Shown here piece by piece: positions 6,361 to 59,084 of a stretch of DNA of 64,000 nucleotides. A program made the translations under genes and the position numbers. This DNA comes from an uncultured bacterium (lineage in GTDB: Bacteria > Planctomycetota > UBA1135 > GCA-002686595). Numbering within the stretch: the stretch's first letter is position 1; the number at the start of each line of letters is the position of its first letter. A model generated the notes under the pieces. It did no database searches, was not told the DNA's origin, and saw nothing but the letters and a program-made list of their open reading frames with translations. The DNA lies in contig CALEMP010000021.1 in assembly GCA_937910685.1 (NCBI GenBank), forward strand, positions 53,428 to 117,427, in the 5' to 3' direction.

Positions 6361-6381
6361 ACTGGATGGCACTTTCCGCCT

Positions 6382-46684: not shown

Positions 46685-47332
46685 ATGGGTTCAGGTTCAG
46701 CTCGTCAATCCTATGTCGATTACCAACAGAGAGCTTCGGAGTTCTCTGTTGGTGACTCCGTGTACTACTCGATGGATGGTCAAAACCACATCGGGGGTGT
46801 CACAGCCGTGTACCCGGCCATAGGTATGATTGACGTGGAGTACCCTGATGGTAGTGTTCGTCTTCCGGTAGAGGACGTGACCCGCTACGAGTCCAAGGAC
46901 GTTATCCCTCCCGCACTTGAGCACGACAACGTACCGGGTGGGGCAGGGACCGTTCGGGTGCCCGGTGGACCCGTTCCCAGGGCAGCACGGGCCGAACTTG
47001 AAAGGCATGCCAACCGGGTAGCCCAAGCCTGGGTGAAGAAGTCACTCTATTGGGCAGGCAAGGACCGCAAGTACAAGGCAACCTCAGCCGAGATCGCAAG
47101 TGGGAGGTTCTCCTGTCCCAAGTGCAAGAATCACGTGGATGAGGATGAGCCTGTGTACCTTCGCCCCGCCAACTACAAGCGGAGCGAGGGTGTGAGTGAG
47201 CGCCTACTGGGTTGCCCAGAGTGCCTGTTCCTCATCAAGCGTTGTGACATCATCGGGCATCCAGAGTTTGTAGACCCGGATGCCCCCATGGATCCGTTGG
47301 CCCGACACCGTGTAGCTTCGGGGGTGCCCTGA
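46685..47332 (+). CDS. hypothetical protein with zinc-ribbon Cys pairs
   Basis: ATG 46685. 'CPKC...CPEC' and 'NRVAQAWVKK'. Confidence 0.5.
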   Translation: MGSGSARQSYVDYQQRASEFSVGDSVYYSMDGQNHIGGVTAVYPAIGMIDVEYPDGSVRLPVEDVTRYESKDVIPPALEHDNVPGGAGTVRVPGGPVPRAARAELERHANRVAQAWVKKSLYWAGKDRKYKATSAEIASGRFSCPKCKNHVDEDEPVYLRPANYKRSEGVSERLLGCPECLFLIKRCDIIGHPEFVDPDAPMDPLARHRVASGVP

Positions 47333-50265
47333 TGGCTTTCATGAAGTATGCACGGGCTTCCGTGGTGCACCCCCACATCGGGAAGACCGAATGGGCGAAG
47401 GTTCGGGTAGCTGCCAAGACCTCCAACGGAGATCTGAATGACAACCTGGTTGCCAGGGCGTCTGAGCTGTTAGGTAAGCCCTTCAACCCCAAGGACTTCT
47501 TGCTGACCCATGCGACCATCGTCGCTTCGGTCGACACGTTTGAGCCCACAGGGATCAAGACGGGTTCGGTCCTTGAAGGTGGCTTCCGGGTGAACAGGAA
47601 GTACGGTAACTTCCGAATCAAGGCGTCCTGCGACAAGTTCATAAACAACAACTTGGATTCCTGGGACCGGGACGTGCTCCTCAAGAGCTACCGCACCTTC
47701 GTCGGGGGTCATAACTTCTGCTTTGCACCGGGGACGCAGGTGCGTTTGGCAGATGGGTCATACAAACCCATTGAGGATGTGATTGTGGGGGATCTGGTGC
47801 TCACCCATATGGGTAGAGCCCGTAAGGTCACCAGGTTGTTCAAGCGTCTCTATGAGGGGGACATTCAGGCTGTTCAGATTGGGCGATTCAAGGATCCAAT
47901 TCTGGCGACAGGCAATCACCCCTTCCGAGCGTTGAGTGTTGAGGCTCCTCCCCTAGGTCGGTACAAGTCCGGGAAAGCGAAGTCGGCGCTACGTTACCGG
48001 AAAGATCAGATAGTCAAAGCTCTCCGTGGAGAGCAGGCAACCTTTGGCTCTAGCACCCCTGCTTTGCGGAAGGTCGTGGATGCCATGGGGTCTGGCCCAA
48101 TGACGAGGGCCGAAGTGTCCTCTTTGTTGGGTTGCGGGGATGCCGGTAGCTTGCTCAGGCAATACCCCAGGTATTTCGGTGTCAGGCCACTAGCCCAAGA
48201 TGAGAGGCCCAAGTTGCGGGGGCGTTCCCGACCCCGCAAGATGTGGTTCCTCAAAGACACTGCTCCTGAGATCCCCTCGCAAGAGGTGAGGATCATCCCT
48301 GAGTGGGTCAATGCAGGAGACCTGGGCACCACATCCTGGGTTCGGGGGCCGAATTGCAATACTGGATCAGTATCCTCTCTGAAGCGAGCCTCACTACTGG
48401 GCTACTATGCCGCAGAGGGGTGTCTCGCATGGGAGGGTAATGAGAACCCGGTTGCTGTTATTTTGAGTTTCGGTCCTCACGAACGAACTCTTGCCGAAGA
48501 TGCTCAAAAGTTGGCGGAGGACGTGTGGCCTGAAGCTACCGTAAAGATCCATCCGACGCAGACGTCTCTGCGGACAACAATCCGATCAAAGGCTGCAGCT
48601 GCCTGGTTCCAGAAGATGTGTGGTCATCTGGCCCACCTCAAGACGTTGCACCCTTCCGTACACGACTGGGACAGGGAAACTCAGCTTCAGTTGTTGGCTG
48701 CTTGGATGACTGGGGATGGGAACCTACACAAAGGTACCCTCCGACTCCGTGGAGCTTCTGTCTCACGGAAGCTGTCTGACCAGATGCAGTTGGTGGCCGA
48801 GCAGTGTGGTTTGAAGTCCTTCACGGTATTTGAGAAGCGCAACATCGGTGAGGTTGGCAGCCAAGTGCAGATGGTGGTCGGTGGAGAACCCCGAATTTTC
48901 GATGTGATCTCCCGCCACCACTGTTGGACGACCTACGTGTCTCGTTCGGATTGTACCGAAATTGTGTCTCGGTCGAAGCGGTGGGGGCCAGTTGTACCGG
49001 TATCCAACAAGAGCCAGGATCTGGCTTGGTGGGAGGGGGCTAGGCTATATCAGGTCACCAGCAACACAAGCATCCCCTATTCAGGTTATGTCCACAACAT
49101 CGAGGTCGAGGAGGATCACTCCTACGTTGTCGACCACGGGGTCTGTGTCCATAACTGCGAGCATGTTCAGGTAGAAGAACTGTCCAAGGGTCGCATCATA
49201 GACTCTGTAGCCCGCGACATTGGTGACAGTGTTTACACGGACATTCTCATTGCTACCGACCGGAAGCACAGAGATCTCGTCACCGCCATTGTGAATGGCA
49301 AGATGAGCACCCTGTCCATGGGGTGCAGCGTTGACGGCACTCAATGTACGAAGTGCGGGCACTGGGCTGCGGATGAGACAGAGATGTGCAACTGCGTTAA
49401 ATACGCAAAGGGCAACATCTTCTTCGACGAGAACGGCAACAAGCATCGGGTCGCGGAGCTTTGTGGTCACAAGAGCATAGGCCCGACTGGAGGGGTTCAG
49501 TTCATTGAGGCTAGTTGGGTTGCAACCCCGGCTTTCACGGGTGCGGTGCTCAGGAACATCCTGGAGCCTACCGAAAGTCAGTTTCGGCAGGTTCAGGCTA
49601 TCCTGAACACCCCACCACCTCAGTGGTCATCTGACACTCAGATGAAGGCTGCTTTCCTCACGGACTCCAGCTCTGCTTTTGGCTTCTCCTCTGGAAATGA
49701 CCTCCTGGCTGAGTCCAGTGATTTCTTTGCTGGGTGGCAGGATTCCGAAGAGCCTGCGGAAGATGCTGAGGCAAAACCCGCAGAGGAGCCTAACCCCTTC
49801 AAGGATATTGAAGAGGAGATGGTCACCTTCGTGTCCGACCGGGTGAAGAAGCGTCTGCAAGAGCAGATGAAGGGTGACGAAGCCGAGAAGGTTCTCAACC
49901 CTGAGACCCCAACCTCGACTAACGAGACTCTCGTCAAGGAAGGGTCAATTCTTCGCACTGCAACGGATGTCCTCATCCGTACGGCGACAACCAGAGCAGC
50001 CCTCGTGGATGGCATTGCTCAGTTGGCGCAGGCTGGTGGTATCAACATCCCTATCCGGGTCTATCGGGTAGCGGTGAAGATGGGATCTGCGGACTTTGCA
50101 GATCCCACTCGTTTTCAGGCTTGTCTAGCTTCACTGGGTCAGCCCTCTTCTGCTGAGATTCGGGTACTCCGTAAGCTTGGCAAGCTCATCGCACATTGGG
50201 AACGCCAGACCCAAGGTGCGAGTCATACTTTTCAATCTGGTAGTCGCCACAAGGAGACGCAATGA
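47332..50265 (+). CDS. intein-containing protein; extein resembles a T4 gp21-type (assemblin-fold) prohead protease with a long acidic C-terminal extension
   Basis: Spliced text: 'YRTFVGGHNF-CEHVQVEELSKGRIIDS...VYTDILIATDRKHRDLVTAIVNGKMSTLSMGCSV...VQFIEASWVATPAFTGAVL'. Compare gp21 '..GELNHP..VYGRARV..IRAGWIPGVSSRG..VDAVWGPSAPDAWV'. It lies between the portal and the scaffold/capsid genes. The protease call is tentative. Confidence 0.45.
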   Translation: MAFMKYARASVVHPHIGKTEWAKVRVAAKTSNGDLNDNLVARASELLGKPFNPKDFLLTHATIVASVDTFEPTGIKTGSVLEGGFRVNRKYGNFRIKASCDKFINNNLDSWDRDVLLKSYRTFVGGHNFCFAPGTQVRLADGSYKPIEDVIVGDLVLTHMGRARKVTRLFKRLYEGDIQAVQIGRFKDPILATGNHPFRALSVEAPPLGRYKSGKAKSALRYRKDQIVKALRGEQATFGSSTPALRKVVDAMGSGPMTRAEVSSLLGCGDAGSLLRQYPRYFGVRPLAQDERPKLRGRSRPRKMWFLKDTAPEIPSQEVRIIPEWVNAGDLGTTSWVRGPNCNTGSVSSLKRASLLGYYAAEGCLAWEGNENPVAVILSFGPHERTLAEDAQKLAEDVWPEATVKIHPTQTSLRTTIRSKAAAAWFQKMCGHLAHLKTLHPSVHDWDRETQLQLLAAWMTGDGNLHKGTLRLRGASVSRKLSDQMQLVAEQCGLKSFTVFEKRNIGEVGSQVQMVVGGEPRIFDVISRHHCWTTYVSRSDCTEIVSRSKRWGPVVPVSNKSQDLAWWEGARLYQVTSNTSIPYSGYVHNIEVEEDHSYVVDHGVCVHNCEHVQVEELSKGRIIDSVARDIGDSVYTDILIATDRKHRDLVTAIVNGKMSTLSMGCSVDGTQCTKCGHWAADETEMCNCVKYAKGNIFFDENGNKHRVAELCGHKSIGPTGGVQFIEASWVATPAFTGAVLRNILEPTESQFRQVQAILNTPPPQWSSDTQMKAAFLTDSSSAFGFSSGNDLLAESSDFFAGWQDSEEPAEDAEAKPAEEPNPFKDIEEEMVTFVSDRVKKRLQEQMKGDEAEKVLNPETPTSTNETLVKEGSILRTATDVLIRTATTRAALVDGIAQLAQAGGINIPIRVYRVAVKMGSADFADPTRFQACLASLGQPSSAEIRVLRKLGKLIAHWERQTQGASHTFQSGSRHKETQ
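47719..49155 (+). mobile_element. intein (479 aa) with LAGLIDADG homing-endonuclease domain
   Basis: aa 130-608. Starts 'CFAPGTQVRLADG' with block B 'TGNHPF'. LAGLIDADG motifs 'LLGYYAAEGCL' and 'LLAAWMTGDGNL'. Ends 'HGVCVHN' with the +1 Cys (49156-49158). Confidence 0.85.
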
Positions 50266-51803
50266 GCGCACATCGTCAGCGAATGACATGGGCAGCACGC
50301 CAGGCGGCTGCCCCTGCCGCGATCCCCGGTTATGGGGTCGAGGATCAGGATCACCCGGCTCACCAGCCCGATCCCTCACATGAAGACTACGCCAAGGGTG
50401 ACCCCTCAGCGTGGGCTGAAGATCCGCATCCTGCGCCGTATGGCGACAGTGGACCCCCGGCTCTTCCGGGTTACGGTGTTGAGGACCAGGACCACCCTGC
50501 ACATGGCGGGCAGGTTGGTCGTCAGGCTGGCCTCAAGGAGGCAGTGCGTCGGCGTGCAGCCAAGTGTCTCGTGATCGCACGGCACACCCTGGGCAAGACT
50601 GCCAGCACGGCGTCTATCGAGGAGCGAGCTTTCGGGCTGATGGACCTCTCGGACGCGAAGATCGAATCAGCCCTTCAGCGTATCGCTGGTCAGCGCAAGC
50701 AGGCTGGTGGGTTCTTCGCTGATGACCTCGACCTGATGGGCGAGGAGGATGACCTCTTCTCCGAAGACATGGACGACGACCTTCTCGGCTTTGACGATGA
50801 AGGTGACCTCTTTTCTGAGGATCTCCTCGGATGTGGGGACGACATGTACGGGGAGGAGGACGACGAAGCTCTTCTTGCTCGTTTTGCACGTCTGGAGCGA
50901 AAGGTTGCCCGGCTTCGTCGACAGGCAGACCAGAACGACCCTGACGGTGAGACCCTCACTCCTGATGCCAAGTCGGAGGACGAGGAGAAGGGCGAGGAGG
51001 CCAAGGCCAACAAGGCAGCATCGGTGTCCAAGGAGGCAGCATGGTTTGCTATCTCCGATGGCGACCGTGATGGTTTCGTGACCGCCCGTGAATGGCGTGG
51101 TTCCCGGAAGGCCTTTCTTGCCATGGACAAGGATCGCGACGGCATCCTCTCCTTCAGCGACATCCGACTGGCTGCCGATGAGGAAGCGGACGACGAGGAA
51201 GAAGAGACCGCCAGCAAGAAGGCATACGGTCACTTCTCTGATCTGGACGACGAGGAGATGGACATGCTCAGCGCGATGGGCGATGACATCTCCGCCTGTG
51301 GCGAGCCGATGGGCAGCATCTACGCATCCAAGAAGTCCGAGGACGAGGATGATGCCGACGCCGACGAGGGCGATGCCGACGAGGGCGACGAGGACGAGGA
51401 TTCCGACGAGGATGCCAGCAAGGAGGCGAGCTTCTTCGCTGGTCACGGTGACCCGATGGGTCTGTCTGAGGAGTCGGTCCTGACTGCCGCTGACGAAGCA
51501 GCCTTCGCCAACGTGTTCGGGCGCAACGCTTCGGATGATGAGGACGAGGACGAGGACGAGGAGGTCGCCAGCAAGAAGGCGAGCAAGAAGTCTGAGGACG
51601 AAGAGGCTGATGAGGACGAGGAAGAGGAGGTGGCAAGCAAGAAGGCCAGCCGCACCGCTTCTCGTCGCCCGCAGCCTCGCAAGAAGGCCGCTGGGGTTCG
51701 CACCTTGGGTAGCCTGTCCGGTGGTGGAAGCACCAAGGGTAGTGAGGTCGATGAGCTGTCCAAGCTCTGGGCGAGCGCCCCGGACGTGTCCGACGCCTTC
51801 TAG
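50262..51803 (+). CDS. acidic scaffold-like protein with an EF-hand pair
   Basis: 513 aa, immediately upstream of the decoration/capsid genes. Long Asp/Glu tracts, repeated 'VASKKAS', and two canonical EF-hand loops. Confidence 0.55.
   Translation: MSAHRQRMTWAARQAAAPAAIPGYGVEDQDHPAHQPDPSHEDYAKGDPSAWAEDPHPAPYGDSGPPALPGYGVEDQDHPAHGGQVGRQAGLKEAVRRRAAKCLVIARHTLGKTASTASIEERAFGLMDLSDAKIESALQRIAGQRKQAGGFFADDLDLMGEEDDLFSEDMDDDLLGFDDEGDLFSEDLLGCGDDMYGEEDDEALLARFARLERKVARLRRQADQNDPDGETLTPDAKSEDEEKGEEAKANKAASVSKEAAWFAISDGDRDGFVTAREWRGSRKAFLAMDKDRDGILSFSDIRLAADEEADDEEEETASKKAYGHFSDLDDEEMDMLSAMGDDISACGEPMGSIYASKKSEDEDDADADEGDADEGDEDEDSDEDASKEASFFAGHGDPMGLSEESVLTAADEAAFANVFGRNASDDEDEDEDEEVASKKASKKSEDEEADEDEEEEVASKKASRTASRRPQPRKKAAGVRTLGSLSGGGSTKGSEVDELSKLWASAPDVSDAF
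50325..50504 (+). repeat. two copies of a 13-aa repeat PGYGVEDQDHPAH
   Basis: Copies at 50325-50363 and 50466-50504. They are identical at the protein level and diverged at synonymous sites. Confidence 0.9.
51057..51161 (+). other. EF-hand pair (two 12-residue Ca-binding loops)
   Basis: 'DGDRDGFVTARE' and 'DKDRDGILSFSD'. Both fit D-x-D-x-D-G-x-(I/V)-x-x-x-(E/D). Confidence 0.7.
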
Positions 51804-51982: not shown

Positions 51983-52576
51983 ATGGCAACCCTTCTTGGA
52001 CAGGCAAGCGGTGGCTGGACGGAGTCTTCGTCGGCTCTTGAGGTGCTCCACGCGGGCATTTTCAATTCGACGGGAGTCCTGACGGACGACAGCTTCACTC
52101 AGAACAACCCTCCGCTGATTTCAGTGGGGATCACCAACCAGGTCGATCAAACGCTCAACGGCGTTCTGAGCGGCTCGGTCGCCTTCGCTCGCGGTGACGC
52201 AGGTGGCGGTGCGAACTTCATCGGTGGCCCGATTGCACCAGCCGTCACGGCTCGTCCTATCGGGGTCTTCCTCAACAACGCGAACGGCAACGCTTTCGAG
52301 AACACGCCGGGCACCGCGAGCGGGAAGAACACCTACATGAGCAGCCAGGGCACGTATGCCAACCGGCTGTTCGAAGACAAGAACATCGCCACTGCGGCGA
52401 TTCTGACCTACGCATGTGCGGATTTCTTGTTTGCGAGCCGCAATGGCTACCTGACCAACGTGGTTGCTGACAACAACCGCATGGAGCAGATCGCCACCGG
52501 CATCACGACTATCGGCCTCCTCAAGATGCCGCCTGACTCAACCCAGAACTTCCTGGTCTACGACCAGCGCATCTGA
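51983..52576 (+). CDS. hypothetical head protein (decoration protein by position)
   Basis: 197 aa, Gly/Asn/Thr-rich, high GC3, directly upstream of the capsid gene. Confidence 0.5.
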   Translation: MATLLGQASGGWTESSSALEVLHAGIFNSTGVLTDDSFTQNNPPLISVGITNQVDQTLNGVLSGSVAFARGDAGGGANFIGGPIAPAVTARPIGVFLNNANGNAFENTPGTASGKNTYMSSQGTYANRLFEDKNIATAAILTYACADFLFASRNGYLTNVVADNNRMEQIATGITTIGLLKMPPDSTQNFLVYDQRI

Positions 52577-52587
52577 CGGAGGAATCA

Positions 52588-53463
52588 ATGAACAACGTCA
52601 CGAACGCGGTCAAGCAGAAGATCATCGGAGAGTACGTCAAGACCCCCCAGGGTCGCGCCAAGCTCGCCGCTTCCATGACCCAGCCGCTCCGTACGCGGCG
52701 AGACTACGCCGCCGTTGGCCGCAAGACCTTCTTGGTTGAGCAGCTCCCGGACGGTGCCCTTCCGATCTACGACAAGGATCCCGATGTGACGGCCTACGTG
52801 GTTGGTGAGGAGGGTCAGAACATCCTGGCCATCACCAAGCCCAGGCGCGTCATCTTCCCCCTCTTTGAGATCGCGTCCAACCCCGAGATCCCGCTCACGC
52901 AGATCAAGGAGCGACGGTTCGACCTCATCGAGCGCAGTCAGGATCTGGGCCGTGCTCAGATTCAGGCTGCAGAGGACGAGCGTGTCTTCGCGGTTCTCGA
53001 TTCAGTGGCGACCTCTGGCTTCGACAGCCTTCCGGGTCAGTTGAACCCTGACATCCCGGTCATCGCCCCCATTTCGGGTGCGGTCATCGCGGATGCCTTT
53101 GCGCTCATTGAGCGGCACGACCTCCGGGTCGCCCGCATCTACATGAACGCACGGGACTACGCGGATATCCGCAAGTTCGGGCGCGACATCCTCGACATCG
53201 AGTCCCAGGCCACCCTGCTCAAGACCGGACTCCAGGGCGTCATCTACGGCGCTCAGGTGGTCACGAGCCGACTGGTCCCCGTGGGCACGGTCTACCTGGC
53301 CTGTGAGCCCGAAATGTTCGGACGTATCCCCGTACGCACCGAGCTGACCGTCTTGTCCGCAGATGATCCCCGACGTCGTATGATCGGGTTCTCGATCTTC
53401 GAGAACCTCGGCATCGGCGCATACAACCCTCGCGGACTTGCACGACTCACTGTTACCCGGTAA
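52588..53463 (+). CDS. putative major capsid protein (HK97/encapsulin-like size class)
   Basis: 291 aa. Strong GC3 bias. Preceded by scaffold-like and decoration-like genes and followed by two hairpins/terminators. 'RRDYAAVGRKTFLVEQLPDGALPIYDKD' resembles small HK97-fold capsid/encapsulin N-termini. Confidence 0.6.
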   Translation: MNNVTNAVKQKIIGEYVKTPQGRAKLAASMTQPLRTRRDYAAVGRKTFLVEQLPDGALPIYDKDPDVTAYVVGEEGQNILAITKPRRVIFPLFEIASNPEIPLTQIKERRFDLIERSQDLGRAQIQAAEDERVFAVLDSVATSGFDSLPGQLNPDIPVIAPISGAVIADAFALIERHDLRVARIYMNARDYADIRKFGRDILDIESQATLLKTGLQGVIYGAQVVTSRLVPVGTVYLACEPEMFGRIPVRTELTVLSADDPRRRMIGFSIFENLGIGAYNPRGLARLTVTR

Positions 53464-53476
53464 ACCCGCGTAACAA

Positions 53477-53496
53477 CTAGGTTTTCACGAACCTAG
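53477..53496 (+). other. 7-bp hairpin after the capsid gene
   Basis: CTAGGTT / AACCTAG with loop TTCACG. Confidence 0.6.
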
Positions 53497-53504
53497 CTGA
53501 GTAA

Positions 53505-53545
53505 AAAGGGGCCTTCTGGAGCAATTCAGGAGGCCCCTTTCTCTT
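53505..53545 (+). terminator. rho-independent terminator
   Basis: 10-bp stem AAAGGGGCCT / AGGCCCCTTT followed by CTCTT. Confidence 0.75.
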
Positions 53546-53604
53546 GGAAGATTAAAGCGCCAAACCCTTGCTTTTAGCGATGGGCTCGTTCATATCCTCT
53601 GGGC

Positions 53605-55725
53605 ATGAAAGCCGTCCCTTGTCCGGTCTCGCCTGAAGAACTTCGCTACCTCGTCCACGACGAGAAACTCACCGACAAAGACATTGCCACTAAGTTGGGT
53701 GGCACCATTAAGCGGGTGCAGGCGTGGCGGCGTCAATTTGGGATTGAAGCCCTGCCACGGTGGAAGCGCAACGAGGTGGCCCCGATTGAAGGCTCCCTGC
53801 GGTCCCTGTTGGTTGGCTCCATGTTGGGGGACGGTCGCATCGTCAGGCAAAAGACGGCCTCGTACTACATGGAGAGCCACTGTGGGGCACAGCGAGCCTA
53901 CCTGGAGTGGAAGGCAGCCTTGTGGGCAGGGTGGGAGCACACGATTAATGAGGTACCTGACAAGCGTGGTTACACGCAGGCACGTCTCCGCACCAGGGCG
54001 CATGGCTCACTGAACCCATGGCAGGAGATGTTCTATGGAGACCATAAGCGGGGGTGGAAGCGCCTGCTCCCGAAGGTGGTGGACATGGTGGACGAACTCG
54101 CACTGGCTGTCTGGTACATGGACGATGGACACGCAGGGTGGTGGCCCGGTATCTCCTTCGGCATGGGTGGGTCAAGTTGGGAAGTGGCTTTGGCCATCTT
54201 CGATAAGTTCGATCTCAACCCTCGCTGGCAGCTTCACAAGGGCAAGACGGGCACCTTCCATTTGGAGCGAGAGGATACGGCGGAACGGTTCCTTGAGCTT
54301 ATCCGTCCTCACGTCCCTGTGTGCATGGCTGCCAAATTGGGGCCTTTCGGGTTCCAGGGTCCACACTATCAGGTGCGTCAACGGGTGACTGAGGAGGTTC
54401 TTCGGGACGGGGCCGCAAAGGGCATCCCCATTGCTCAAATGGGGCGGGAACTAGGGGTCGGTGCGTCCACTGTCCGTCGCAGGCTTCGTTCACTGGGGAT
54501 TGACTACACTCCTCCCAAGGGACGCCCCACAAAGGCTACCCCTTGGCTTGGTGACACCCAACCACTGGTCCGTGAACGATCCCTTCTACTGGATGGGGAG
54601 GCTGACAGGATGCACACCATGCTTCAGGGTGGTCTAACTGGGCAGGAGGTGGCTGACCTCTATGGTGTCCACAGGACAACGGTGTACCGAAGGCTTCGGG
54701 GACACCCCCCACTCAAGACTGGTCCCCGGACTAGTCTCACAAAGGAAGTAGCTACCATCCTCCTGAAGAGCAGGTACCCTGACACCTCCTTGTGGAAAGG
54801 CTTGGACCCGGACAGTCAGGAGGCTTGGGTTCAGGATGTCCTGGGTGTCCTTCAACAGGTGAAGTTCCCATACCCGGAGCAAGTCTCAGATGCTGTGAGG
54901 GACAAGACCCACCAGGGTCTTGTCGCCAAGGATACCACCTTGGGTCACTCTTCTATGGGCTTGAAGCTTTGCTACTCCTTCTTCCCCAACCGCTACCGGG
55001 CTAGATACAGGGGGAGGCAATCGGCTTTTGAAGCATGGCACGATGCAGAGGCATTGAGGCGGGCTGTTCTATGGCAGTTTCGCGTTGGTGACCCGGTAAC
55101 GCCTGCCAGGGTTCTAAAAGCCGTGTGTGCCAACGCCCGCACTCCAACCATCTTCAGACCCACCGTAGCAGCAGCCTTGTACAGGAGGTACTGCAAGCCT
55201 GGGGACACCGTTTGGGATCCATGTGCAGGTTTCGGGGGTCGCTTGTTGGGGGCGGTGGTTGCTGGGGTTCACTATATTGGGACGGATGTAGCCCCGGAGA
55301 CCGTCGAGGGCAACATACGGCTGGCAGAGTGGTTAGGTGCTCCGGTGGATGTTCATTTGTCACCTGCGGAGTCTTTCAAACCCCCCCAGGTTCAAATGGT
55401 GATGACCTCACCACCCTACTTCCACCAGGAACAGTATGCCGGTGGGGACCAGTCCTGGTCAGTTTTCGACACCTTCCAAAGTTGGCAGGAGGGGTTCCTG
55501 ACTCCGATGATCCAACGTGGTGCGGAGGCTCTCACGCAGGGTGGTCATTGGGTGATGAACATCGCGGACGTGTCGTACAAGAGGGCGACCTATCCGTTGG
55601 TAGAGTCAGCCAGGGTGGCTTTGAAGGAAGCGGGGTTGGTTGAGGTGGAGACTTTGGCGATGCCTCTTTCCAACCTGAATCGTCGGTCTAAAGGCGAGCC
55701 GCTATTGGTGTGGCGGAAGAAGTGA
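53605..55725 (+). CDS. LAGLIDADG homing endonuclease fused to HTH domains and an SPPY-type DNA (N6-A/N4-C) methyltransferase
   Basis: LAGLIDADG motifs 'LLVGSMLGDGRI' and 'LAVWYMDDGHA' (about nt 53791-54339). HTH-like 'IAQMGRELGVGASTVRRRLRSLG' and 'GQEVADLYGVHRTTVYRRLRG'. MTase motif I 'VWDPCAGFGGRLLGA' and motif IV 'VMTSPPYF' (about nt 55102-55704). Confidence 0.75.
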   Translation: MKAVPCPVSPEELRYLVHDEKLTDKDIATKLGGTIKRVQAWRRQFGIEALPRWKRNEVAPIEGSLRSLLVGSMLGDGRIVRQKTASYYMESHCGAQRAYLEWKAALWAGWEHTINEVPDKRGYTQARLRTRAHGSLNPWQEMFYGDHKRGWKRLLPKVVDMVDELALAVWYMDDGHAGWWPGISFGMGGSSWEVALAIFDKFDLNPRWQLHKGKTGTFHLEREDTAERFLELIRPHVPVCMAAKLGPFGFQGPHYQVRQRVTEEVLRDGAAKGIPIAQMGRELGVGASTVRRRLRSLGIDYTPPKGRPTKATPWLGDTQPLVRERSLLLDGEADRMHTMLQGGLTGQEVADLYGVHRTTVYRRLRGHPPLKTGPRTSLTKEVATILLKSRYPDTSLWKGLDPDSQEAWVQDVLGVLQQVKFPYPEQVSDAVRDKTHQGLVAKDTTLGHSSMGLKLCYSFFPNRYRARYRGRQSAFEAWHDAEALRRAVLWQFRVGDPVTPARVLKAVCANARTPTIFRPTVAAALYRRYCKPGDTVWDPCAGFGGRLLGAVVAGVHYIGTDVAPETVEGNIRLAEWLGAPVDVHLSPAESFKPPQVQMVMTSPPYFHQEQYAGGDQSWSVFDTFQSWQEGFLTPMIQRGAEALTQGGHWVMNIADVSYKRATYPLVESARVALKEAGLVEVETLAMPLSNLNRRSKGEPLLVWRKK

Positions 55726-55934
55726 GTGTGGGAGCGGTGCCACTCATCATAGAGCCATCTCTTCATTTCCGCCTGCTTCTCGGGGGAGCATCCCACAAAA
55801 GGGTTCCTCTCTCGCTCGTTATCTACAAGCCTCTGACATCGTGGACAGGTAGCCAGGTGTTCCCGATGTTCCTTGGGAGTTTCATCCGGTGTGAAGATGG
55901 CCACTCGCAACTGGTCCAGATCTAGATGCTTCAT
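55590..55934 (-). CDS. small zf-HC2 (anti-sigma-like) zinc-finger protein; only minus-strand gene candidate
   Basis: The minus-strand ATG (55934-55932) is preceded by GGAGG with a 7-nt spacer. 'MKHLDLDQLRVAIFTPDETPKEHREHLATCPRCQRLV' fits H-x3-C-x2-C. The 3' 136 nt overlap the methyltransferase gene convergently. Confidence 0.4.
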   Translation of the reverse strand: MKHLDLDQLRVAIFTPDETPKEHREHLATCPRCQRLVDNERERNPFVGCSPEKQAEMKRWLYDEWHRSHTHFFRHTNSGSPLDRRFRLERGIAKVSTSTNPASFKATLADSTNG

Positions 55935-56067
55935 GTCCTTGCCTCCATTCAAGAGACGGTGACCATGCACCCAATCTAAACAACAAGGCGGTTTACACCT
56001 GTTAGGCAGTTCACTTTGGTTCCAAAAGGAGTAGGTAGGGTCGGACACTCACCTGAAGGAGGCCCCT

Positions 56068-56670
56068 GTGTCGGACACGAAAGAGGACTTTGTGAATGTA
56101 GGCATCGTCTCCATGGAGCCTTTCCTCGCAAGGGGCGAGGGCTTTTCGGAGGCTCTTCAAGCTCTCAAGGAGCTGGCTGAGCACACCGGCAACCCCTTCC
56201 TGACTGCAATCATAAATGGCCTGCGGGTTCGACCCTGGCGAGTGCCAACCAAGGAACTCCTTCCAAAGAAGGATGTTGTAGCGCCTTCAGGCTACTCTCT
56301 GCACAAGGGTGCCAAACGGTTTGACACCCCCGATCAGGTCAAGTCAGGGAAGTTCCCGGTGGAGGTAAACCTGACGGCGGCAGATACGACCCCACCTTCG
56401 GGAGCCGTGACCGTAGCCAGAGTCCCGAAAGCGGAGTCCCGGACCCAACTTGACCATCCCATGTTCCATCAGCGGACTTCGATCAGTGACTCGAGTGCGA
56501 AGATTGCCGCCAAGGAAGGCAAGGAGGGCAAGGCAACGTCTTTGGGTGATGCCGTGGACCAGTCGGTAAACGTCTTCCTGAGCAAGGAGAGGCCGCGTTC
56601 CGTGGAAGGTCGAGCGCGGGCGTTGGCCAAACTACGCCACAAGGTAAAGGAGGATCCCTCCCATGGGTGA
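56068..56670 (+). CDS. hypothetical protein
   Basis: GTG start 5 nt after GAAGGAGG. 200 aa. Confidence 0.5.
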   Translation: MSDTKEDFVNVGIVSMEPFLARGEGFSEALQALKELAEHTGNPFLTAIINGLRVRPWRVPTKELLPKKDVVAPSGYSLHKGAKRFDTPDQVKSGKFPVEVNLTAADTTPPSGAVTVARVPKAESRTQLDHPMFHQRTSISDSSAKIAAKEGKEGKATSLGDAVDQSVNVFLSKERPRSVEGRARALAKLRHKVKEDPSHG

Positions 56671-57841
56671 ACCAGCACGTGATGGTGCAAGGGTACAAGC
56701 CCCTGCCCCCCAGGAAGGCGCTGTTCCCGAAGAGGGGATGAAAGCTCCCAAATCGGGCATGGCCAAGCTTCAAGGGGACCAGTTGACGCAATTCCTTGAG
56801 GAGCAACAGAAGGCCCAGCGAAGGTCCAAAGCTCTGGAGGCTGTTGTAGGCTTTCAAGGCCAATACAACTCCATCGCGGAAGAGGTGGAGAATCTCGCTG
56901 GCTTCTGCACGGAACAGAATGTCCTGTGGTCTGCCTTCGGGCGGCACGCAGGCAATGCCTTTCAGGACGGGTATCGGAAACACGCCCTGACATGTGCGGC
57001 ACAGGACGAGAATGCCGCCGACTGGGCTCTCTTCTCCACCGTAGTAGGCGGGGCAATGGTGTCCGTGCTCGCGGACCTGTCCAAGCACATGTACAAGCGC
57101 CTTGGGGAAACAGGGCAGATCCCTGGTTCCTTCAGCACCGCCCTTCAGCTTGGTACAGGGGGTGTCTCAAGCATCGCCAAGGACGGGGTCAAGGAAGCGG
57201 TCAAGGGAGATCAGGCCAAGAAGAAAATTGGTCCAGTCCGCCCTGGGGCTGAGGGGGATAAGGCCCAGCAGTTGGCAGGACCGGCACAGGATCAATTCCT
57301 GGATAGGATGGATGCCTCCTTCGTGGGCACCAGCCAAAGCCTACGTCATGCGGAGGGCATGATTCGGAGGAAGGCCCAGGGGGTGTTTCAAAGCACCTTG
57401 TCAGGACTGGAGGCTGCTGAAGGTACGGGTGGGGCTGAGGAGTGGTTGAAGACCACCATGGCTGAACTTCAAAGCCAGGTAGAGTCCGCCAAGCAGATCC
57501 TGACTACCTGCAAAGCCTTGGTGAAGGAGTCCGAACTTGGCAAGAGCCCCCCTGCTCTTGATGCCGAGGCTTACTCCGCACGTACCGAAGAGGAATGCTG
57601 GTGGATGTGGCTGCGTAGTCTGCGACGTAGCAAAGCTATGCAAAACATGGGGCCAGGGCTTGCCGAATTCAAAAAGGTGGGAGGAGCTTGCCCCTTTGGG
57701 GCGGGAGCCGTGGAACAACGGTTGATTCAACTGGGGATACTAGGCCCTGATGGTTGGGGTTGGGTCACAACACAAGAGGATCTCTCGGAGATCGTCGGGA
57801 GGGCGGATGCTCATGTTCCGAAGCCTTATTTTGGTGAGTAG
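56663..57841 (+). CDS. hypothetical protein
   Basis: 392-aa ORF overlapping the upstream stop. Helical and Ala/Gly/Gln-rich. No motif recognised. Confidence 0.5.
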   Translation: MGEPARDGARVQAPAPQEGAVPEEGMKAPKSGMAKLQGDQLTQFLEEQQKAQRRSKALEAVVGFQGQYNSIAEEVENLAGFCTEQNVLWSAFGRHAGNAFQDGYRKHALTCAAQDENAADWALFSTVVGGAMVSVLADLSKHMYKRLGETGQIPGSFSTALQLGTGGVSSIAKDGVKEAVKGDQAKKKIGPVRPGAEGDKAQQLAGPAQDQFLDRMDASFVGTSQSLRHAEGMIRRKAQGVFQSTLSGLEAAEGTGGAEEWLKTTMAELQSQVESAKQILTTCKALVKESELGKSPPALDAEAYSARTEEECWWMWLRSLRRSKAMQNMGPGLAEFKKVGGACPFGAGAVEQRLIQLGILGPDGWGWVTTQEDLSEIVGRADAHVPKPYFGE

Positions 57842-58076
57842 CCTCACCCTTCTTGTGGGGTGTGGCAAAGCCCCAGACCCATTGGAGGTAATGATCTTTC
57901 TGGTCCTGGCTTGTCTCGGGCTCATGGGGGGCCTTTCAGTCAACAGCAAGGAGGACCGCTTGGTGAAAGCCTTGTACCATCTGGGCATGCTGCTCTGTGT
58001 GCTCACCATGGCATTCCTTGTTGCGGCACAAGGGATCATCCAGCAGCTTTTCTTCATTGCAGGGGGTGGGCGGTAG
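57807..58076 (+). CDS. small lipoprotein/membrane protein
   Basis: 'MLMFRSLILVSSLTLLVGC' (signal peptide plus L-V-G-C lipobox) followed by two hydrophobic helices. It overlaps the 3' end of the previous gene. Confidence 0.5.
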   Translation: MLMFRSLILVSSLTLLVGCGKAPDPLEVMIFLVLACLGLMGGLSVNSKEDRLVKALYHLGMLLCVLTMAFLVAAQGIIQQLFFIAGGGR

Positions 58077-58114
58077 GGCTGCTTGGTTTTTTTCGCGTGA
58101 CCCTCATTTTTGTG

Positions 58115-58143
58115 TTGACCTCCCTGAAGGCTTGAGTTACAAC
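58115..58143 (+). promoter_or_regulatory. candidate sigma70-type promoter
   Basis: TTGACC (58115-58120), 17-nt spacer, TACAAC (58138-58143). T-rich stretch upstream. It lies just after a T7 run (58087-58093). Confidence 0.35.
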
Positions 58144-58493
58144 CCTCCTCGCTTCAAGGGGAAACCCAATGGAGACAACCTTTACGGTGAGGCTCATGGC
58201 GGGCACATATCCGGGGGGTTGGAAGGAAGTTAGCCACTTCCTTCAAATGTCAGGGTCTCCACTTGGAAGGAGGCTGGGGTAAGGAGCCAAGTACCTTGTC
58301 CTGACTGGTGAAACACCCGGTCGAACCCGCAGACGAGAAGAAGGATCTGACACCTTCACTAGACTCGTCACTGGACCTCACTGCGCTGAGAGGTGCTAGT
58401 GAGGAAAGGGTCCACGCTTTTTAAGCGTCAAGTGGACAATGGGGCACAAAGGACGACTGCACTTCACCGTGAAGAGGCCCTTGTGCAAAGCGT

Positions 58494-58529
58494 AAAGCCA
58501 CCGTCCTACCTTCGGGTAGCGGTGGCTTT
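58494..58529 (+). terminator. very stable hairpin with UUCG tetraloop (terminator or structural RNA element)
   Basis: AAAGCCACCG-TC-CTACC-TTCG-GGTAG-CGGTGGCTTT: a 10-bp outer and a 5-bp inner stem. Followed by CGCCGTTCG, which is not a clean U-tract. Confidence 0.55.
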
Positions 58530-58554
58530 CGCCGTTCGTGGGTATTCTTCCCAC

Positions 58555-58770
58555 ATGGAAACTGAAGTCTTCATCGTCACTGCCTCTGGCCCCAATCCAC
58601 ATAAAGCATCCGGCGATGGGATGTACTTCCTGGAAGAGGAAGCTCAGGAAGAGGCCGACCGACGCAATCTTGAAGGCCCAGGCGTCTTCACTGTCTACCG
58701 CATGTTGATCCGTCCTGCTCCCCTCTCCGCGCCTCATGGCTGCGGCCTTGTCGGACACTCACGAAATTGA
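58555..58770 (+). CDS. hypothetical small protein
   Basis: ATG 58555. 'METEVFIVTASGPNPHKASGDGMYFLEEEAQEEADRRNLEGPGVFTVYRMLI...'. The longer GTG-58393 version would read through the hairpin. Confidence 0.4.
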   Translation: METEVFIVTASGPNPHKASGDGMYFLEEEAQEEADRRNLEGPGVFTVYRMLIRPAPLSAPHGCGLVGHSRN

Positions 58771-58804
58771 ATCCCCAAGGAGTAGACACCGGGTATGGCT
58801 GGGC

Positions 58805-59071
58805 ATGGCTCGTGTCCACCTTGTTGAAGACAGCATTGACATTTCTGAAGAACTCCTCCTGGGTGAGTTCTCCAATGCTTTTCGCGTGCTTCCTTCCACA
58901 CGGGGGGAGTGCTATCTGGACTTCATCCTGTATTCAGAAGGTGCCCGAAAGGCGGTTGTGATCCAGCGTGTCCGGGTTCGGCAGGAGTTCCTTGCGCATG
59001 TCACGAGCCTTATGAGTGAAGTCCTTCAAGACAATCAGGCTCTTGGGTCGTTCTTTGAGTTTCAACGGTAA
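58805..59071 (+). CDS. DUF3467-like small protein
   Basis: 'GEFSNAFRVLPSTRGECYLDFILYSEGARKAVVIQRVRVRQEFLAHVTSLMSEVL' fits the DUF3467 pattern. The start is uncertain (ORF open from 58736). Confidence 0.45.
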   Translation: MARVHLVEDSIDISEELLLGEFSNAFRVLPSTRGECYLDFILYSEGARKAVVIQRVRVRQEFLAHVTSLMSEVLQDNQALGSFFEFQR

Positions 59072-59084
59072 GATGCAGAGATAG

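What the first reader, a model, noticed from the sequence alone, without database searches (positions are those of the whole stretch)
53605..55725. Single-chain fusion of a LAGLIDADG homing endonuclease and a DNA methyltransferase in an inserted-looking cassette
The 706-aa ORF has these parts, in order:
- an N-terminal HTH;
- a complete two-motif LAGLIDADG domain ('LLVGSMLGDGRI', 'LAVWYMDDGHA');
- two further HTH-like segments;
- a C-terminal amino-methyltransferase, with motif I 'DPCAGFGGR' about 60 aa before motif IV 'TSPPYF' (gamma-like order).

It sits immediately after the strong capsid-gene terminators, between head genes and the following module. It is followed by the only reverse-strand gene, so it looks like a mobile insertion.

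LAGLIDADG enzymes are normally selfish homing nucleases, not partners of methyltransferases. A covalent nuclease-methylase could behave like a minimal restriction-modification or addiction-like unit. The methylase would protect the carrier genome while the nuclease cleaves unmodified competitors or empty sites. Alternatively, the LAGLIDADG part could be an inactive DNA-targeting module for the methylase.
Basis: partly seen in the sequence, partly recalled or inferred. Interest (0 to 1): 0.7.

Follow-up and report, generated by a model that had tools for sequence, protein, structure and literature searches.

The report
Mobile LAGLIDADG nuclease fused to methyltransferase
The 706-aa gene is a real, conserved fusion of an I-SceI-type homing endonuclease and a DNA methyltransferase, both apparently active; it comes and goes at one fixed spot just after the capsid gene of a clade of huge phages, and whether the methylase shields the phage from its own nuclease is still untested.

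Summary
ORF 53605-55725 encodes an HTH, a complete two-motif LAGLIDADG domain, two more HTHs, a disordered linker and an amino-methyltransferase.

- **Not an artefact.** About 50 clusters at 90% identity, and well over 100 representatives at 50% identity, keep the whole architecture down to about 30% identity.
- **Both active sites look intact.** D76, D174 and K244 align with I-SceI D44, D145 and K223. Methyltransferase motifs I and IV (TSPPY, the N4-cytosine signature) are invariant.
- **It sits in a variable island.** The gene is the first gene of a hypervariable island between the major capsid gene (86-97% identical in 560 loci) and the next core gene. Of 50 distinct relatives, 30 lack it, 13 carry the fusion, 6 carry the LAGLIDADG-HTH part alone and 1 carries the same methylase behind a different N-terminal module.
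- **It moves or is exchanged.** LAGLIDADG divergence is uncorrelated with flank divergence, and the nuclease and methylase halves are mosaic.

My best reading is a mobile free-standing homing endonuclease carrying a methylase. A strict restriction-modification-like pairing is possible but weakened by the mosaicism. The nearest published precedent is the in-frame LAGLIDADG domain in actinophage methylases. I rate it a new variant of a known kind, interest about 0.6.

The parts
52588..53463 (+). Major capsid protein gene. It is the conserved left flank, and possibly the homology arm or target, of the element.
   Evidence: phrog_2522 major head protein, E=3.8e-47. It is 86-97% aa identical in the best 80 of 560 IMG/VR loci.
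53477..53545 (+). Two capsid-gene terminator hairpins. The second is a 16-bp G+C-rich stem followed by a U-rich tail.
   Evidence: MFE -40.3 kcal/mol, z -5.55. An equivalent hairpin plus T-run follows the capsid gene in all relatives inspected, whether occupied or empty.
53547..53562 (+). Leader motif GAAGATTAAAGCGCCA (consensus GGARWTWAAAGCRMCA) between the terminator and the start codon. It is specific to this sub-lineage of the element.
   Evidence: Unique in the window. Found only upstream of the closest fusion relatives L001, L005, L006 and L016, and never in empty loci.
53605..55725 (+). The LAGLIDADG-HTH-methyltransferase fusion gene (706 aa plus stop).
53626..53745 (+). N-terminal helix-turn-helix (aa 8-47).
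   Evidence: AF2 helices at aa 10-19, 24-31 and 35-45. PHROG matches to N-terminal DNA-binding regions of phage endonucleases and repressors.
53776..54354 (+). I-SceI-family double-motif LAGLIDADG endonuclease domain (aa 58-250). Motif 1 is at 53806-53841 (D76 codon 53830-53832). Motif 2 is at 54103-54135 (D174 codon 54124-54126). K244 lies in 54325-54345.
   Evidence: Pfam PF03161, 65.6 bits. Family profile against the PDB: I-WcaI E=5.9e-25, I-SceI E=5.6e-24, over the full domain, with D44, D145 and K223 aligned to D76, D174 and K244. Foldseek top hits 6x1j and 1r7m, TM (target) 0.65-0.70. G71, L74, G75, D76, G77, W170, D173, D174, G175 and K244 are invariant in 48 sequences.
54361..54495 (+). 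Second HTH (aa 253-297). This is the C-terminal DNA-binding module of the endonuclease unit; stand-alone LAGLIDADG-HTH relatives end just after it.
   Evidence: Pfam HTH hits at aa 266-297. AF2 helices. Relatives L022, L081 and L083 (309-327 aa) stop at the equivalent of aa ~310-325.
54496..54597 (+). Disordered linker (aa 298-331), the junction between the endonuclease unit and the methylase unit.
   Evidence: pLDDT below 50 at aa 318-328. This is the poorly conserved stretch in A1.
54598..54699 (+). Third HTH (aa 332-365), which belongs to the methylase unit.
   Evidence: Pfam HTH_23, HTH_7 and HTH_28 at aa 332-365.
54742..55137 (+). Conserved helical domain preceding the methylase core (aa 380-511). 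It is a candidate target-recognition domain.
   Evidence: pLDDT above 90. Shared with the stand-alone 330-aa Vibrio phage 'N-4 cytosine-specific DNA methylase', match over aa 391-705.
55138..55722 (+). Rossmann-fold amino-methyltransferase core (aa 512-706). Motif X is TPTIFRP (55141-55161), motif I is DPCAGFGGR (55216-55242) and motif IV is TSPPYF (55405-55422). The order is X-I...IV, a circular permutation of beta-class enzymes.
   Evidence: D538, P539, C540, G542, G545, R546 and T601, S602, P603, P604, Y605 are invariant. The family profile hits PDB beta-class DNA methylases in permuted order: 2zie E=3.6e-10 (motif IV part) and 8s9n 'DNA cytosine-N4 methyltransferase' E=3.3e-5 (motif X-I part). 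PADLOC gives Type II MTase and mad2 hits.
55590..55934 (-). Reverse-strand ORF (114 aa from the ATG at 55934), a cargo gene of the same variable island and not part of the fusion. It has an H-x3-C-x2-C zinc-finger-like motif.
   Evidence: GGAGG lies 8 nt upstream of the ATG. zf-HC2 E=0.031, below threshold. No conservation in relatives outside the 136-nt overlap with the methylase.
53464..59084 (.). Hypervariable accessory island between the capsid gene and the next core gene (59085-60383). The fusion gene is its first gene.
   Evidence: The capsid-to-core-gene distance ranges from 167-200 nt (L043, L019: empty) through 2.7 kb (L014: fusion gene only) to more than 8 kb.

Best explanation
The gene is a mobile, free-standing homing-endonuclease gene of the I-SceI (LAGLIDADG_2) family. 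It lives at one genomic address, immediately past the terminator of the ultra-conserved major capsid gene of a clade of huge phages. Its reading frame is joined through a flexible linker to a complete, circularly permuted, N4-cytosine-type DNA methyltransferase.

Shown:
- Both halves keep their catalytic residues.
- The element is present in only about 40% of relatives.
- Its phylogeny is decoupled from that of its flanks.
- Its nuclease and methylase modules have been reshuffled.

Inferred:
- The LAGLIDADG-HTH unit cuts a long site in genomes that lack it. The site is probably in or next to the conserved capsid gene.
- The unit is then copied in by recombinational repair, with the capsid gene as the left homology arm.
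- The methylase unit has its own DNA-recognition domain and its own specificity. It rides along as cargo, methylates phage DNA (most simply to evade host restriction) and so pays for keeping the element.
- Fusion into one ORF ties the two together for expression and inheritance.
For: 1. The fusion is real and under selection.
- 48 full-length homologues down to ~30% identity have invariant D76, D174 and K244 and invariant methylase motifs I and IV.
- 150 of 150 top representatives score E<1e-85, and most span both halves.

2. The nuclease belongs to the I-SceI family.
- Profile against the PDB gives E~1e-24 over the whole domain, with D44, D145 and K223 aligned.
- Foldseek agrees.

3. The position is fixed and the presence is sporadic.
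- Nearly every LAGLIDADG homologue found (~45 loci) starts 96-378 nt after the capsid stop codon. The exceptions are L078 and L117, where another ORF intervenes.
- This holds even where the capsid protein is only 54% (L164) or 32% (L149) identical.
- Of 50 distinct loci sampled through the capsid gene, 30 have none, 13 have the fusion, 6 have LAGLIDADG-HTH only and 1 has another N-terminus plus the methylase.
- Empty sites are 167-200 nt long.

4. There is lateral exchange.
- Spearman correlation of LAGLIDADG identity with flank identity is 0.09 (upstream gene) and 0.007 (capsid nt). The two flank markers correlate with each other at 0.62.
- For example, L040/L073 have flanks 93% identical but LAGLIDADG 29% identical.

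5. The modules are independent.
- Window against P0011: nuclease 31%, methylase 66%. Window against P0005: nuclease 69%, methylase 51%.
- Stand-alone and tandem LAGLIDADG-HTH genes occur at the same site.
- The same methylase also sits behind a different N-terminal module.

6. The methylase module (aa 391-705) is a stand-alone gene in unrelated phages.

7. L118 carries a degenerate LAGLIDADG (both Asp lost) with an intact methylase. That is the decay product expected if the methylase is the part that benefits the phage.
Against: - No cleavage site, methylation motif or activity is known.
- No differentiation of capsid-gene alleles between occupied and empty loci, and no co-conversion signal, was detectable.
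- The closest pair of loci with different states is only 91.8% identical in capsid-gene DNA, and all six closer pairs share their state. Recent transfer is therefore not directly shown.
- In this clade the methylase module was never seen unfused. The two short candidates inspected are contig-end truncations. This fits a functional dependence on a nuclease partner at least as well as it fits a simple cargo role.
Confidence: 0.45

Rival explanations
1. Restriction-modification-like self/non-self unit. The methylase modifies the nuclease's own recognition site in the carrier genome. The LAGLIDADG enzyme can then target an invariant sequence, for example in the capsid gene, and destroy or convert unmodified co-infecting relatives while sparing its own genome.
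For: - Nuclease and methylase catalytic residues are both invariant across the family.
- In this clade the methylase module is found only fused to a nuclease-like N-terminal module, of at least two unrelated kinds. Apparent stand-alone forms are truncations.
- The one decayed member lost the nuclease Asp residues but kept the methylase (L118). That is the order of loss expected for an R-M pair.
- No capsid-gene allele differences separate carriers from non-carriers. This is what methylation-based rather than sequence-based immunity predicts.
- CpG methylation is known to inhibit LAGLIDADG meganucleases (my own knowledge; not checked here).
Against: - Nuclease and methylase halves are mosaic. 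Methylases 63-66% identical carry LAGLIDADG domains only 25-31% identical, which almost certainly have different target sites.
- LAGLIDADG-HTH genes persist at the same site with no methylase anywhere within 8 kb.
- The methylase has its own putative recognition domain and is a stand-alone enzyme elsewhere.
- LAGLIDADG enzymes have not been described in R-M systems (stated in PMC9957025).
Confidence: 0.25
2. A vertically inherited accessory gene with a phage-serving role, such as a site-specific nuclease-methylase used in genome processing or host takeover. In this reading it has been repeatedly lost rather than laterally gained, and it is not a selfish homing element.
For: - Position and synteny are conserved over deep divergence: capsid protein down to 54% identity, fusion protein down to ~30%.
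- All pairs of loci above 92% capsid-gene nt identity share the same state.
- No co-conversion signal was found.
Against: - The phylogeny is decoupled from both flank markers.
- Modules are swapped.
- Some genomes carry tandem arrays of two to three divergent LAGLIDADG genes (L040, L083, L243).
- 60% of relatives do without the gene.
Confidence: 0.12
3. A domesticated, catalytically silent LAGLIDADG (WhiA-like or maturase-like) that acts with its HTHs only as a long-site DNA-binding module, directing the methylase or a regulatory function to one locus.
For: - LAGLIDADG plus HTH is the WhiA architecture (my own knowledge).
- The methylase core has no C-terminal target-recognition domain.
- One relative has a degenerate LAGLIDADG still fused to the methylase (L118).
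Against: - Both catalytic Asp residues and the I-SceI K223 equivalent are invariant in 48 fusions and in the wider 18-sequence domain alignment. WhiA has lost these residues.
- The methylase module functions as a stand-alone gene in other phages with the same N-terminal helical domain.
Confidence: 0.08
4. An assembly or sequencing frameshift that falsely joins two neighbouring genes.
For: None found.
Against: The same uninterrupted architecture occurs in dozens of independent assemblies from NCBI, ENA, JGI and Logan at 30-71% identity.
Confidence: 0.01

Closest known systems
I-SceI and I-WcaI (monomeric, double-motif LAGLIDADG homing endonucleases; Pfam PF03161 LAGLIDADG_2)
   Same: - Same fold and domain length.
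- The family profile aligns over I-SceI residues 29-227 at E~1e-24.
- Catalytic D44 and D145 and active-site K223 are conserved as D76, D174 and K244.
   Different: - I-SceI and I-WcaI are encoded inside mitochondrial group I introns and are about 235 aa with no extra domains.
- Here the domain is free-standing in a phage and flanked by HTH modules. It continues into a methyltransferase.
- No intron RNA or Hint domain is present.
LAGLIDADG domain embedded in-frame in actinophage cluster F DNA methylases (Taj_79 type; Gosselin et al. 2023, PMC9957025)
   Same: - A LAGLIDADG endonuclease domain and a phage orphan-type DNA methylase are in one polypeptide without splicing elements.
- The authors raise the same two readings: an independent selfish element, or a single-peptide R-M.
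   Different: - There, a single ~139-aa domain is inserted inside the methylase, in nine sequences of one phage cluster. Its divergence tracks that of the host methylase, and there was no strong evidence of transfer.
- Here, a full I-SceI-like double-motif enzyme with HTHs sits N-terminal to a different, permuted methylase family.
- The family here has over 100 representatives at 50% identity, a fixed site next to the capsid gene in huge phages, a decoupled phylogeny and module swapping.
Free-standing homing endonuclease genes of T-even phages (seg and mob genes, which mediate marker exclusion; my own knowledge)
   Same: - An intergenic, promoter-to-terminator cassette sits next to a highly conserved gene.
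- Presence and absence are sporadic among close relatives, and tandem and decayed copies occur.
   Different: - Those genes are GIY-YIG or HNH enzymes. LAGLIDADG enzymes are rarely free-standing in phages.
- None of them carries a fused methyltransferase.
Single-chain Type IIG/IIC restriction-modification enzymes (for example MmeI and BcgI; my own knowledge)
   Same: The domain order is the same: N-terminal nuclease, helical connector, then gamma-order amino-methyltransferase in one polypeptide.
   Different: - Their nuclease is a non-specific PD-(D/E)xK domain steered by the methylase's recognition domain.
- Here the nuclease is a LAGLIDADG enzyme with intrinsic long-site specificity.
- The two halves recombine independently.
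Beta-class N4-cytosine/N6-adenine DNA methyltransferases (Pfam PF01555; PDB 2zie and 8s9n) and the stand-alone phage homologue NVP2058O_092 of Vibrio phage 2.058.O
   Same: - Motif X-I (TPTIFRP...DPCAGFGG) and motif IV (TSPPY) match these enzymes.
- The Vibrio phage protein aligns over aa 391-705 and is annotated as an N-4 cytosine-specific methylase.
   Different: - Motif order is permuted: X-I precedes IV.
- There is no domain between motifs VIII and X. Instead there is an N-terminal helical domain plus an HTH.
WhiA (bacterial regulator built from a degenerate LAGLIDADG scaffold plus a C-terminal HTH; my own knowledge)
   Same: A LAGLIDADG scaffold followed by an HTH DNA-binding domain.
   Different: - WhiA has lost the catalytic acidic residues. 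Here they are invariant.
- No Pfam WhiA-family hit was found.

Membership tests
LAGLIDADG homing endonuclease, I-SceI family (PF03161) | Two LAGLIDADG motifs in one chain, about 100 residues apart | tested here: met
   Motifs at aa 68-79 and 167-177. Pfam PF03161 scores 65.6 bits against a cutoff of 25.
LAGLIDADG homing endonuclease, I-SceI family (PF03161) | Pseudo-dimeric alpha-beta-beta-alpha-beta-beta-alpha fold superposable on a solved member | tested here: met
   AF2 pLDDT is about 85-98 over aa 60-246. Foldseek top hits are I-WcaI 6x1j and I-SceI 1r7m, E~5e-9, TM (target) 0.65-0.70.
LAGLIDADG homing endonuclease, I-SceI family (PF03161) | Metal-binding acidic residue at the C-terminal end of each LAGLIDADG helix, plus the peripheral Lys | tested here: met
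   D76, D174 and K244 align with I-SceI D44, D145 and K223. They are invariant in 48 fusions and in the 18-sequence wider set.
LAGLIDADG homing endonuclease, I-SceI family (PF03161) | Site-specific double-strand cleavage of a 14-40 bp target | not testable with these tools
   This needs biochemistry. No target could be inferred from capsid-gene allele comparison.
LAGLIDADG homing endonuclease, I-SceI family (PF03161) | Homing behaviour: sporadic presence at a fixed site, with a gene tree incongruent with the host locus | tested here: met
   The site is fixed 96-378 nt after the capsid stop codon. Of 50 relatives, 30 are empty. Spearman correlation with flanks is 0.007-0.09, against 0.62 between the flanks. 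Recent transfer events are not directly resolved.
Intein-encoded or intron-encoded homing endonuclease | Flanking Hint splicing blocks (intein) or a group I/II intron RNA | tested here: not met
   No Hint or intein Pfam hit in this ORF, and the N-terminus is an HTH. No intron family in Rfam at E<=1 over 52500-56500. By contrast, the upstream ORF 47332-50265 does hold an intein.
N4-cytosine/N6-adenine DNA amino-methyltransferase (PF01555 and relatives) | SAM-binding motif I (FxGxG-type) and catalytic motif IV (S/D/N)PP(Y/F) | tested here: met
   DPCAGFGGR and TSPPYF are present. D538, P539, C540, G542, G545, R546 and T601-Y605 are invariant. M-TSPPY fits the PROSITE N4-methylase signature [LIVMF]-T-S-P-P-[FY] (my own knowledge).
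N4-cytosine/N6-adenine DNA amino-methyltransferase (PF01555 and relatives) | Pfam gathering threshold and homology to solved DNA methylases | tested here: met
   28.4 bits against a cutoff of 26.7, which is marginal. The family profile hits 2zie at E=3.6e-10 and DNA cytosine-N4 methyltransferase 8s9n at E=3.3e-5.
N4-cytosine/N6-adenine DNA amino-methyltransferase (PF01555 and relatives) | Beta-class linear order (IV...VIII-TRD-X-I) | tested here: not met
   Motif X-I (aa 513-546) precedes motif IV (aa 601-606). The PDB beta-class hits align in swapped order. The order is gamma-like, a circular permutation.
N4-cytosine/N6-adenine DNA amino-methyltransferase (PF01555 and relatives) | DNA (not RNA or protein) methylation, and the identity of the modified base | not testable with these tools
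   Fold neighbours also include Trm11 and PrmA. m4C is inferred from the motif only.
Single-chain restriction-modification enzyme (Type IIC/IIG-like) | Nuclease and methyltransferase in one polypeptide | tested here: met
Single-chain restriction-modification enzyme (Type IIC/IIG-like) | Both activities directed to the same recognition sequence, with methylation blocking cleavage | tested here: inconclusive
   This cannot be measured here. Independent reassortment of nuclease and methylase halves and methylase-free LAGLIDADG genes at the site argue against obligate matching.
Single-chain restriction-modification enzyme (Type IIC/IIG-like) | Nuclease domain from a fold known in restriction enzymes (PD-(D/E)xK, HNH, GIY-YIG, PLD, half-pipe) | tested here: not met
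   The nuclease is LAGLIDADG. [quoted passage not shown]
WhiA-like domesticated LAGLIDADG regulator | Loss of the catalytic acidic residues | tested here: not met
   D76 and D174 are invariant. Only one distant relative (L118) has lost them.

The most novel reading that the evidence does not exclude
The family is the first restriction-modification-like system built on a LAGLIDADG nuclease. The fused N4-cytosine methylase would mark the carrier genome's copy of a long, unmutable target, for example in the capsid gene. The nuclease could then eliminate or convert unmodified co-infecting huge phages. This would be a single-polypeptide self/non-self weapon for phage-phage competition, with interchangeable nuclease heads on one methylase chassis.
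Probability: 0.22. Interest if true: 0.85.

Novelty: new variant of a known kind. Interest (0 to 1): 0.6.

Why it matters
- **A test of the homing-endonuclease / R-M link.** Homing endonucleases and restriction-modification systems are usually treated as separate kinds of selfish DNA-cutting elements. This is a large natural family in which a long-site LAGLIDADG nuclease and a DNA methylase are kept together in one protein with both active sites intact. It offers a direct way to ask whether methylation can provide immunity to a homing endonuclease.
- **Possible tools.** The family is a natural library of I-SceI-like meganucleases with built-in accessory DNA-binding modules, and of compact permuted methylases. 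Both are of interest for genome engineering.
- **Phage evolution.** The capsid-proximal island is a hotspot of gene flux in huge phages whose core genes are otherwise extremely conserved.

Tried and rejected
1. **Target-site and immunity scan.**
- I compared 873-nt capsid-gene alleles of empty, LAGLIDADG-only and fusion loci in 21-nt windows.
- Differentiation was about 0.01 everywhere, with no 3'-end co-conversion peak. No target could be inferred.

2. **Identity of the ~130-aa repeated domain.**
- It has the motif GRVGE..YDFxDxDG..VxV[KR]T..W.F. It replaces or follows LAGLIDADG in L062, L109, L117, P0019, P0022, P0030, P0105 and P0142.
- I suspected a PD-(D/E)xK nuclease.
- Pfam, NCBIfam and PADLOC gave nothing. 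PHROGs gave only an unknown-function family. A PDB profile search and a 5.8-billion-protein search found nothing. AF2 on a 3-sequence alignment was unusable, at pLDDT 51.
- The nuclease idea is not supported and not used as evidence.

3. **Stand-alone methylase forms.**
- Short representatives of 345-411 aa looked free-standing.
- The two I could place sit at contig ends with the frame open upstream, so they are truncations.

4. **Host or prophage origin.**
- A scan of GTDB genomes found one near-full fusion, on a Paludibacteraceae MAG contig that also carries the phage capsid gene.
- Otherwise it found only generic LAGLIDADG_2 genes in unrelated genomes. No host could be assigned.

5. **Composition.** There is no GC or skew anomaly for the cassette.

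6. **Other checks.**
- Intron or other RNA: none found.
- Sigma-70 promoter scan: nothing upstream of the gene.

7. **Recent gain or loss.** No pair of loci above 92% capsid-gene nt identity differs in state.


Full report
**What is there.** ORF 53605-55725 (+) encodes 706 aa.
- Pfam gives LAGLIDADG_2 (E=6.6e-18), several HTH families around aa 266-297 and 332-365, and a marginal N6_N4_Mtase hit.
- An AlphaFold2 model built on a 48-sequence family alignment has mean pLDDT 87.9. In order, it resolves:
  - an N-terminal three-helix HTH
  - a LAGLIDADG fold at aa 60-246
  - an HTH
  - a disordered linker at aa ~300-330
  - a third HTH
  - a well-ordered helical domain at aa 380-511
  - a Rossmann core
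- Foldseek against the PDB returns I-WcaI and I-SceI first, followed by generic class I methyltransferases.
- The capsid-gene terminators are real: two hairpins, -40.3 kcal/mol, z -5.55.

**Not an artefact; both halves look active.**
- A search of 5.8 billion proteins found 55 relatives. About 50 of them have the same full-length architecture at 30-71% identity, from independent NCBI, ENA, JGI and Logan assemblies.
- An exhaustive profile search of 1.84 billion representatives at 50% identity gave 2,484 proteins at E<=1e-30. All of the top 150 score below 1e-85, and most span both halves.
- In the 48-sequence alignment the invariant columns include the following:
  - LAGLIDADG motif 1: G71, L74, G75, D76, G77
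  - LAGLIDADG motif 2: W170, D173, D174, G175
  - K244
  - methylase motif I: D538, P539, C540, G542, G545, R546
  - methylase motif IV: T601, S602, P603, P604, Y605
- A profile of the nuclease domain alone matches I-WcaI (E=5.9e-25) and I-SceI (E=5.6e-24) over the whole domain. I-SceI D44, D145 and K223 align with D76, D174 and K244.
- The methylase profile matches solved beta-class DNA amino-methylases in swapped order: 2zie over the motif IV part at E=3.6e-10, and a DNA cytosine-N4 methyltransferase, 8s9n, over the motif X-I part at E=3.3e-5.
- The methylase is therefore a circular permutation with gamma-like order. Its TSPPY motif fits the N4-cytosine signature (my own knowledge).
- The methylase unit (aa 391-705) exists as a stand-alone 330-aa gene in Vibrio phages, where it is annotated as an N4-cytosine methylase. 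Shorter matches occur in Twort-like staphylococcal phages.

**Genomic setting.**
- The window is part of a huge-phage genome:
  - It carries RNR, RecD-like helicase, RecA and clamp-loader genes.
  - It has a 2,086-aa multi-domain ORF with a topoisomerase IB domain.
  - It has an intein-bearing protease-like gene.
- The 291-aa major capsid protein just upstream is extraordinarily conserved. It is 86-97% identical in the best 80 of 560 IMG/VR loci, on contigs up to 618 kb. It is 84% identical in the published 485-kb uncultured phage LR745208.
- The next conserved gene downstream is 59085-60383.
- The distance between these two core genes varies widely:
  - 167-200 nt, terminator only, in L043 and L019
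  - 2.7 kb, fusion gene only, in L014
  - more than 8 kb elsewhere
- So the fusion gene is the first gene of a hypervariable accessory island. Other islands hold unrelated cargo such as secreted proteins, other methylases and helicase-like genes.

**Fixed address, sporadic presence.**
- Nearly every LAGLIDADG relative retrieved, about 45 loci found either through the capsid gene or through the fusion protein itself, begins 96-378 nt after the capsid stop codon. The two exceptions are L078 and L117, where another ORF intervenes.
- This holds even where the capsid protein is only 54% (L164) or 32% (L149) identical.
- Among 50 distinct loci sampled through the capsid gene:
  - 30 have no LAGLIDADG gene
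  - 13 have a LAGLIDADG-methylase fusion
  - 6 have a LAGLIDADG-HTH gene of ~310-330 aa that ends at the linker
  - 1 has the methylase behind a different N-terminal module
- Some genomes hold two or three divergent LAGLIDADG genes in tandem: L040, L083, and the 1,229-aa ORF of LR745208.

**Evidence for lateral exchange and modularity.**
- Across 706 pairs of occupied loci, LAGLIDADG identity does not track flank identity. Spearman correlation is 0.09 with the upstream gene and 0.007 with capsid-gene nucleotides. The two flank markers track each other at 0.62.
- Examples: L040/L073 have flanks 93% identical and LAGLIDADG 29% identical. Window/L001 have flanks 51% identical and LAGLIDADG 70% identical.
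- Within the fusion protein the two halves have different histories:
  - The window's methylase is closest to P0011-P0014 (63-66%), whose LAGLIDADG domains are only 25-31% identical to the window's.
  - P0004-P0007 have the closest LAGLIDADG domains (61-69%) but more distant methylases (49-54%).
- Further architectures exist:
  - 830-890-aa forms with the HTHs moved to the N-terminus and a Cys-rich tail
  - LAGLIDADG-HTH joined to a ~130-aa domain of unknown fold
  - that same unknown domain, in two copies with zinc ribbons, joined to the methylase
- One distant relative (L118) has lost both catalytic Asp residues but keeps an intact methylase.

**Interpretation.**
- The nuclease unit behaves like a free-standing homing endonuclease gene: a fixed site beside an ultra-conserved gene, patchy distribution, a decoupled tree, tandem copies and a decayed copy.
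- The methylase unit is a complete enzyme with its own candidate recognition domain, tethered by a flexible linker.
- I favour a composite mobile element in which the methylase is functionally independent cargo, most simply for anti-restriction (confidence 0.45).
  - In this clade the methylase is never found without a nuclease-like partner. The two apparent exceptions I could place are contig-end truncations.
  - Both active sites are invariant.
  - Carriers show no distinguishing capsid-gene alleles.
- That model is weakened by the reassortment of very different nuclease modules on near-identical methylases, and by methylase-free LAGLIDADG genes at the same site.
- An inactive targeting-module reading is disfavoured by the invariant catalytic residues.

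**Relation to what is known.**
- The closest published case is a LAGLIDADG domain found in-frame inside nine actinophage cluster F methylases. Its authors weighed the same two readings and noted that LAGLIDADG enzymes have not been described in R-M systems (PMC9957025).
- A related in-frame homing insertion in a phage methylase hides an out-of-frame HNH enzyme (PMC11855218).
- The present family differs in five ways:
  - the nuclease type, a full I-SceI-like double-motif enzyme with HTHs
  - the position, N-terminal rather than internal
  - the methylase family, which is permuted
  - the size of the family and the host phages
  - the evidence for exchange
- I found no paper describing it.
- I therefore rate it a new variant of a known kind.

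**Limits.**
- No activity, target site or methylation motif is known.
- Recent transfer is not directly resolved, because no discordant pair exceeds 92% capsid-gene nt identity.
- The unknown ~130-aa domain could not be identified.
- The host is unknown.

Noticed in passing
window 47332-50265 (+): This 977-aa head-maturation-protease-like protein (phrog_18299) is interrupted by an intein running from CFAPGT... to ...VHNC, roughly aa 130-608. The intein has its own LAGLIDADG_3 endonuclease (LLGYYAAEGCL, LLAAWMTGDGNL). Homologues in L001-L003 carry it too. So there is a second, unrelated LAGLIDADG element only 3.3 kb upstream of the fusion gene.
   Followed up: partly
window 37178-43438 (+): A single 2,086-aa ORF combines ChaC-like, PolyA_pol-head nucleotidyltransferase, tRNA-ligase CPD, GNAT and eukaryotic-type topoisomerase IB domains. 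The homologue in L002 also shows Topoisom_I.
   Followed up: no
window 50262-51803 (+): A very acidic 513-aa protein sits between the protease-like gene and the capsid module. It matches EF-hand calcium-binding motifs at aa 260-304 and is presumably scaffold-like.
   Followed up: no
window 55590-55934 (-): This reverse ORF has a good Shine-Dalgarno sequence and an H-x3-C-x2-C motif (zf-HC2 E=0.031, below threshold). Its last 136 nt overlap the methylase 3' end convergently. It is not conserved in relatives outside the overlap.
   Followed up: partly
window 53547-53562; L001, L005, L006, L016 at ~80-87 nt after the capsid stop: The 16-nt leader motif GGARWTWAAAGCRMCA lies directly after the capsid terminator. 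It is unique in the window. It is found only upstream of the closest fusion relatives and never at empty sites. It could be an element-specific promoter or operator.
   Followed up: partly
L062 2118-4156; L109 1705-4089; L117 2348-3931; P0019/P0022/P0030 C-termini; P0105, P0142: A ~130-aa domain of unknown fold (GRVGE..YDFxDxDG..VxV[KR]T..W.F..) occurs singly after LAGLIDADG-HTH. It also occurs in tandem with zinc ribbons in front of the same methylase module. It matches only phrog_13389 (unknown function). My PD-(D/E)xK guess could not be confirmed.
   Followed up: yes
L243 (LR745208.1, 485-kb uncultured phage) 3977-7666: A published huge-phage genome of the same clade (capsid protein 84% identical) carries a 1,229-aa version directly after its capsid gene. 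It has two LAGLIDADG-like units, the methylase and a further C-terminal extension. The record is unannotated.
   Followed up: partly
L002 10251-12172; L003 9938-10981: In relatives the island just downstream of the fusion gene holds further DNA-modification and nuclease genes. L002 has a Dam-family methylase and an Eco29kI-like GIY-YIG restriction endonuclease. L003 has a second N6_N4 methylase whose start overlaps the fusion gene's stop.
   Followed up: no
L118 1578-3365: In this distant relative (capsid protein 70% identical) the LAGLIDADG-like region has lost both catalytic Asp residues (SGVRY and LSGAHY in place of GDG and DDG). The methylase motifs are intact.
   Followed up: partly
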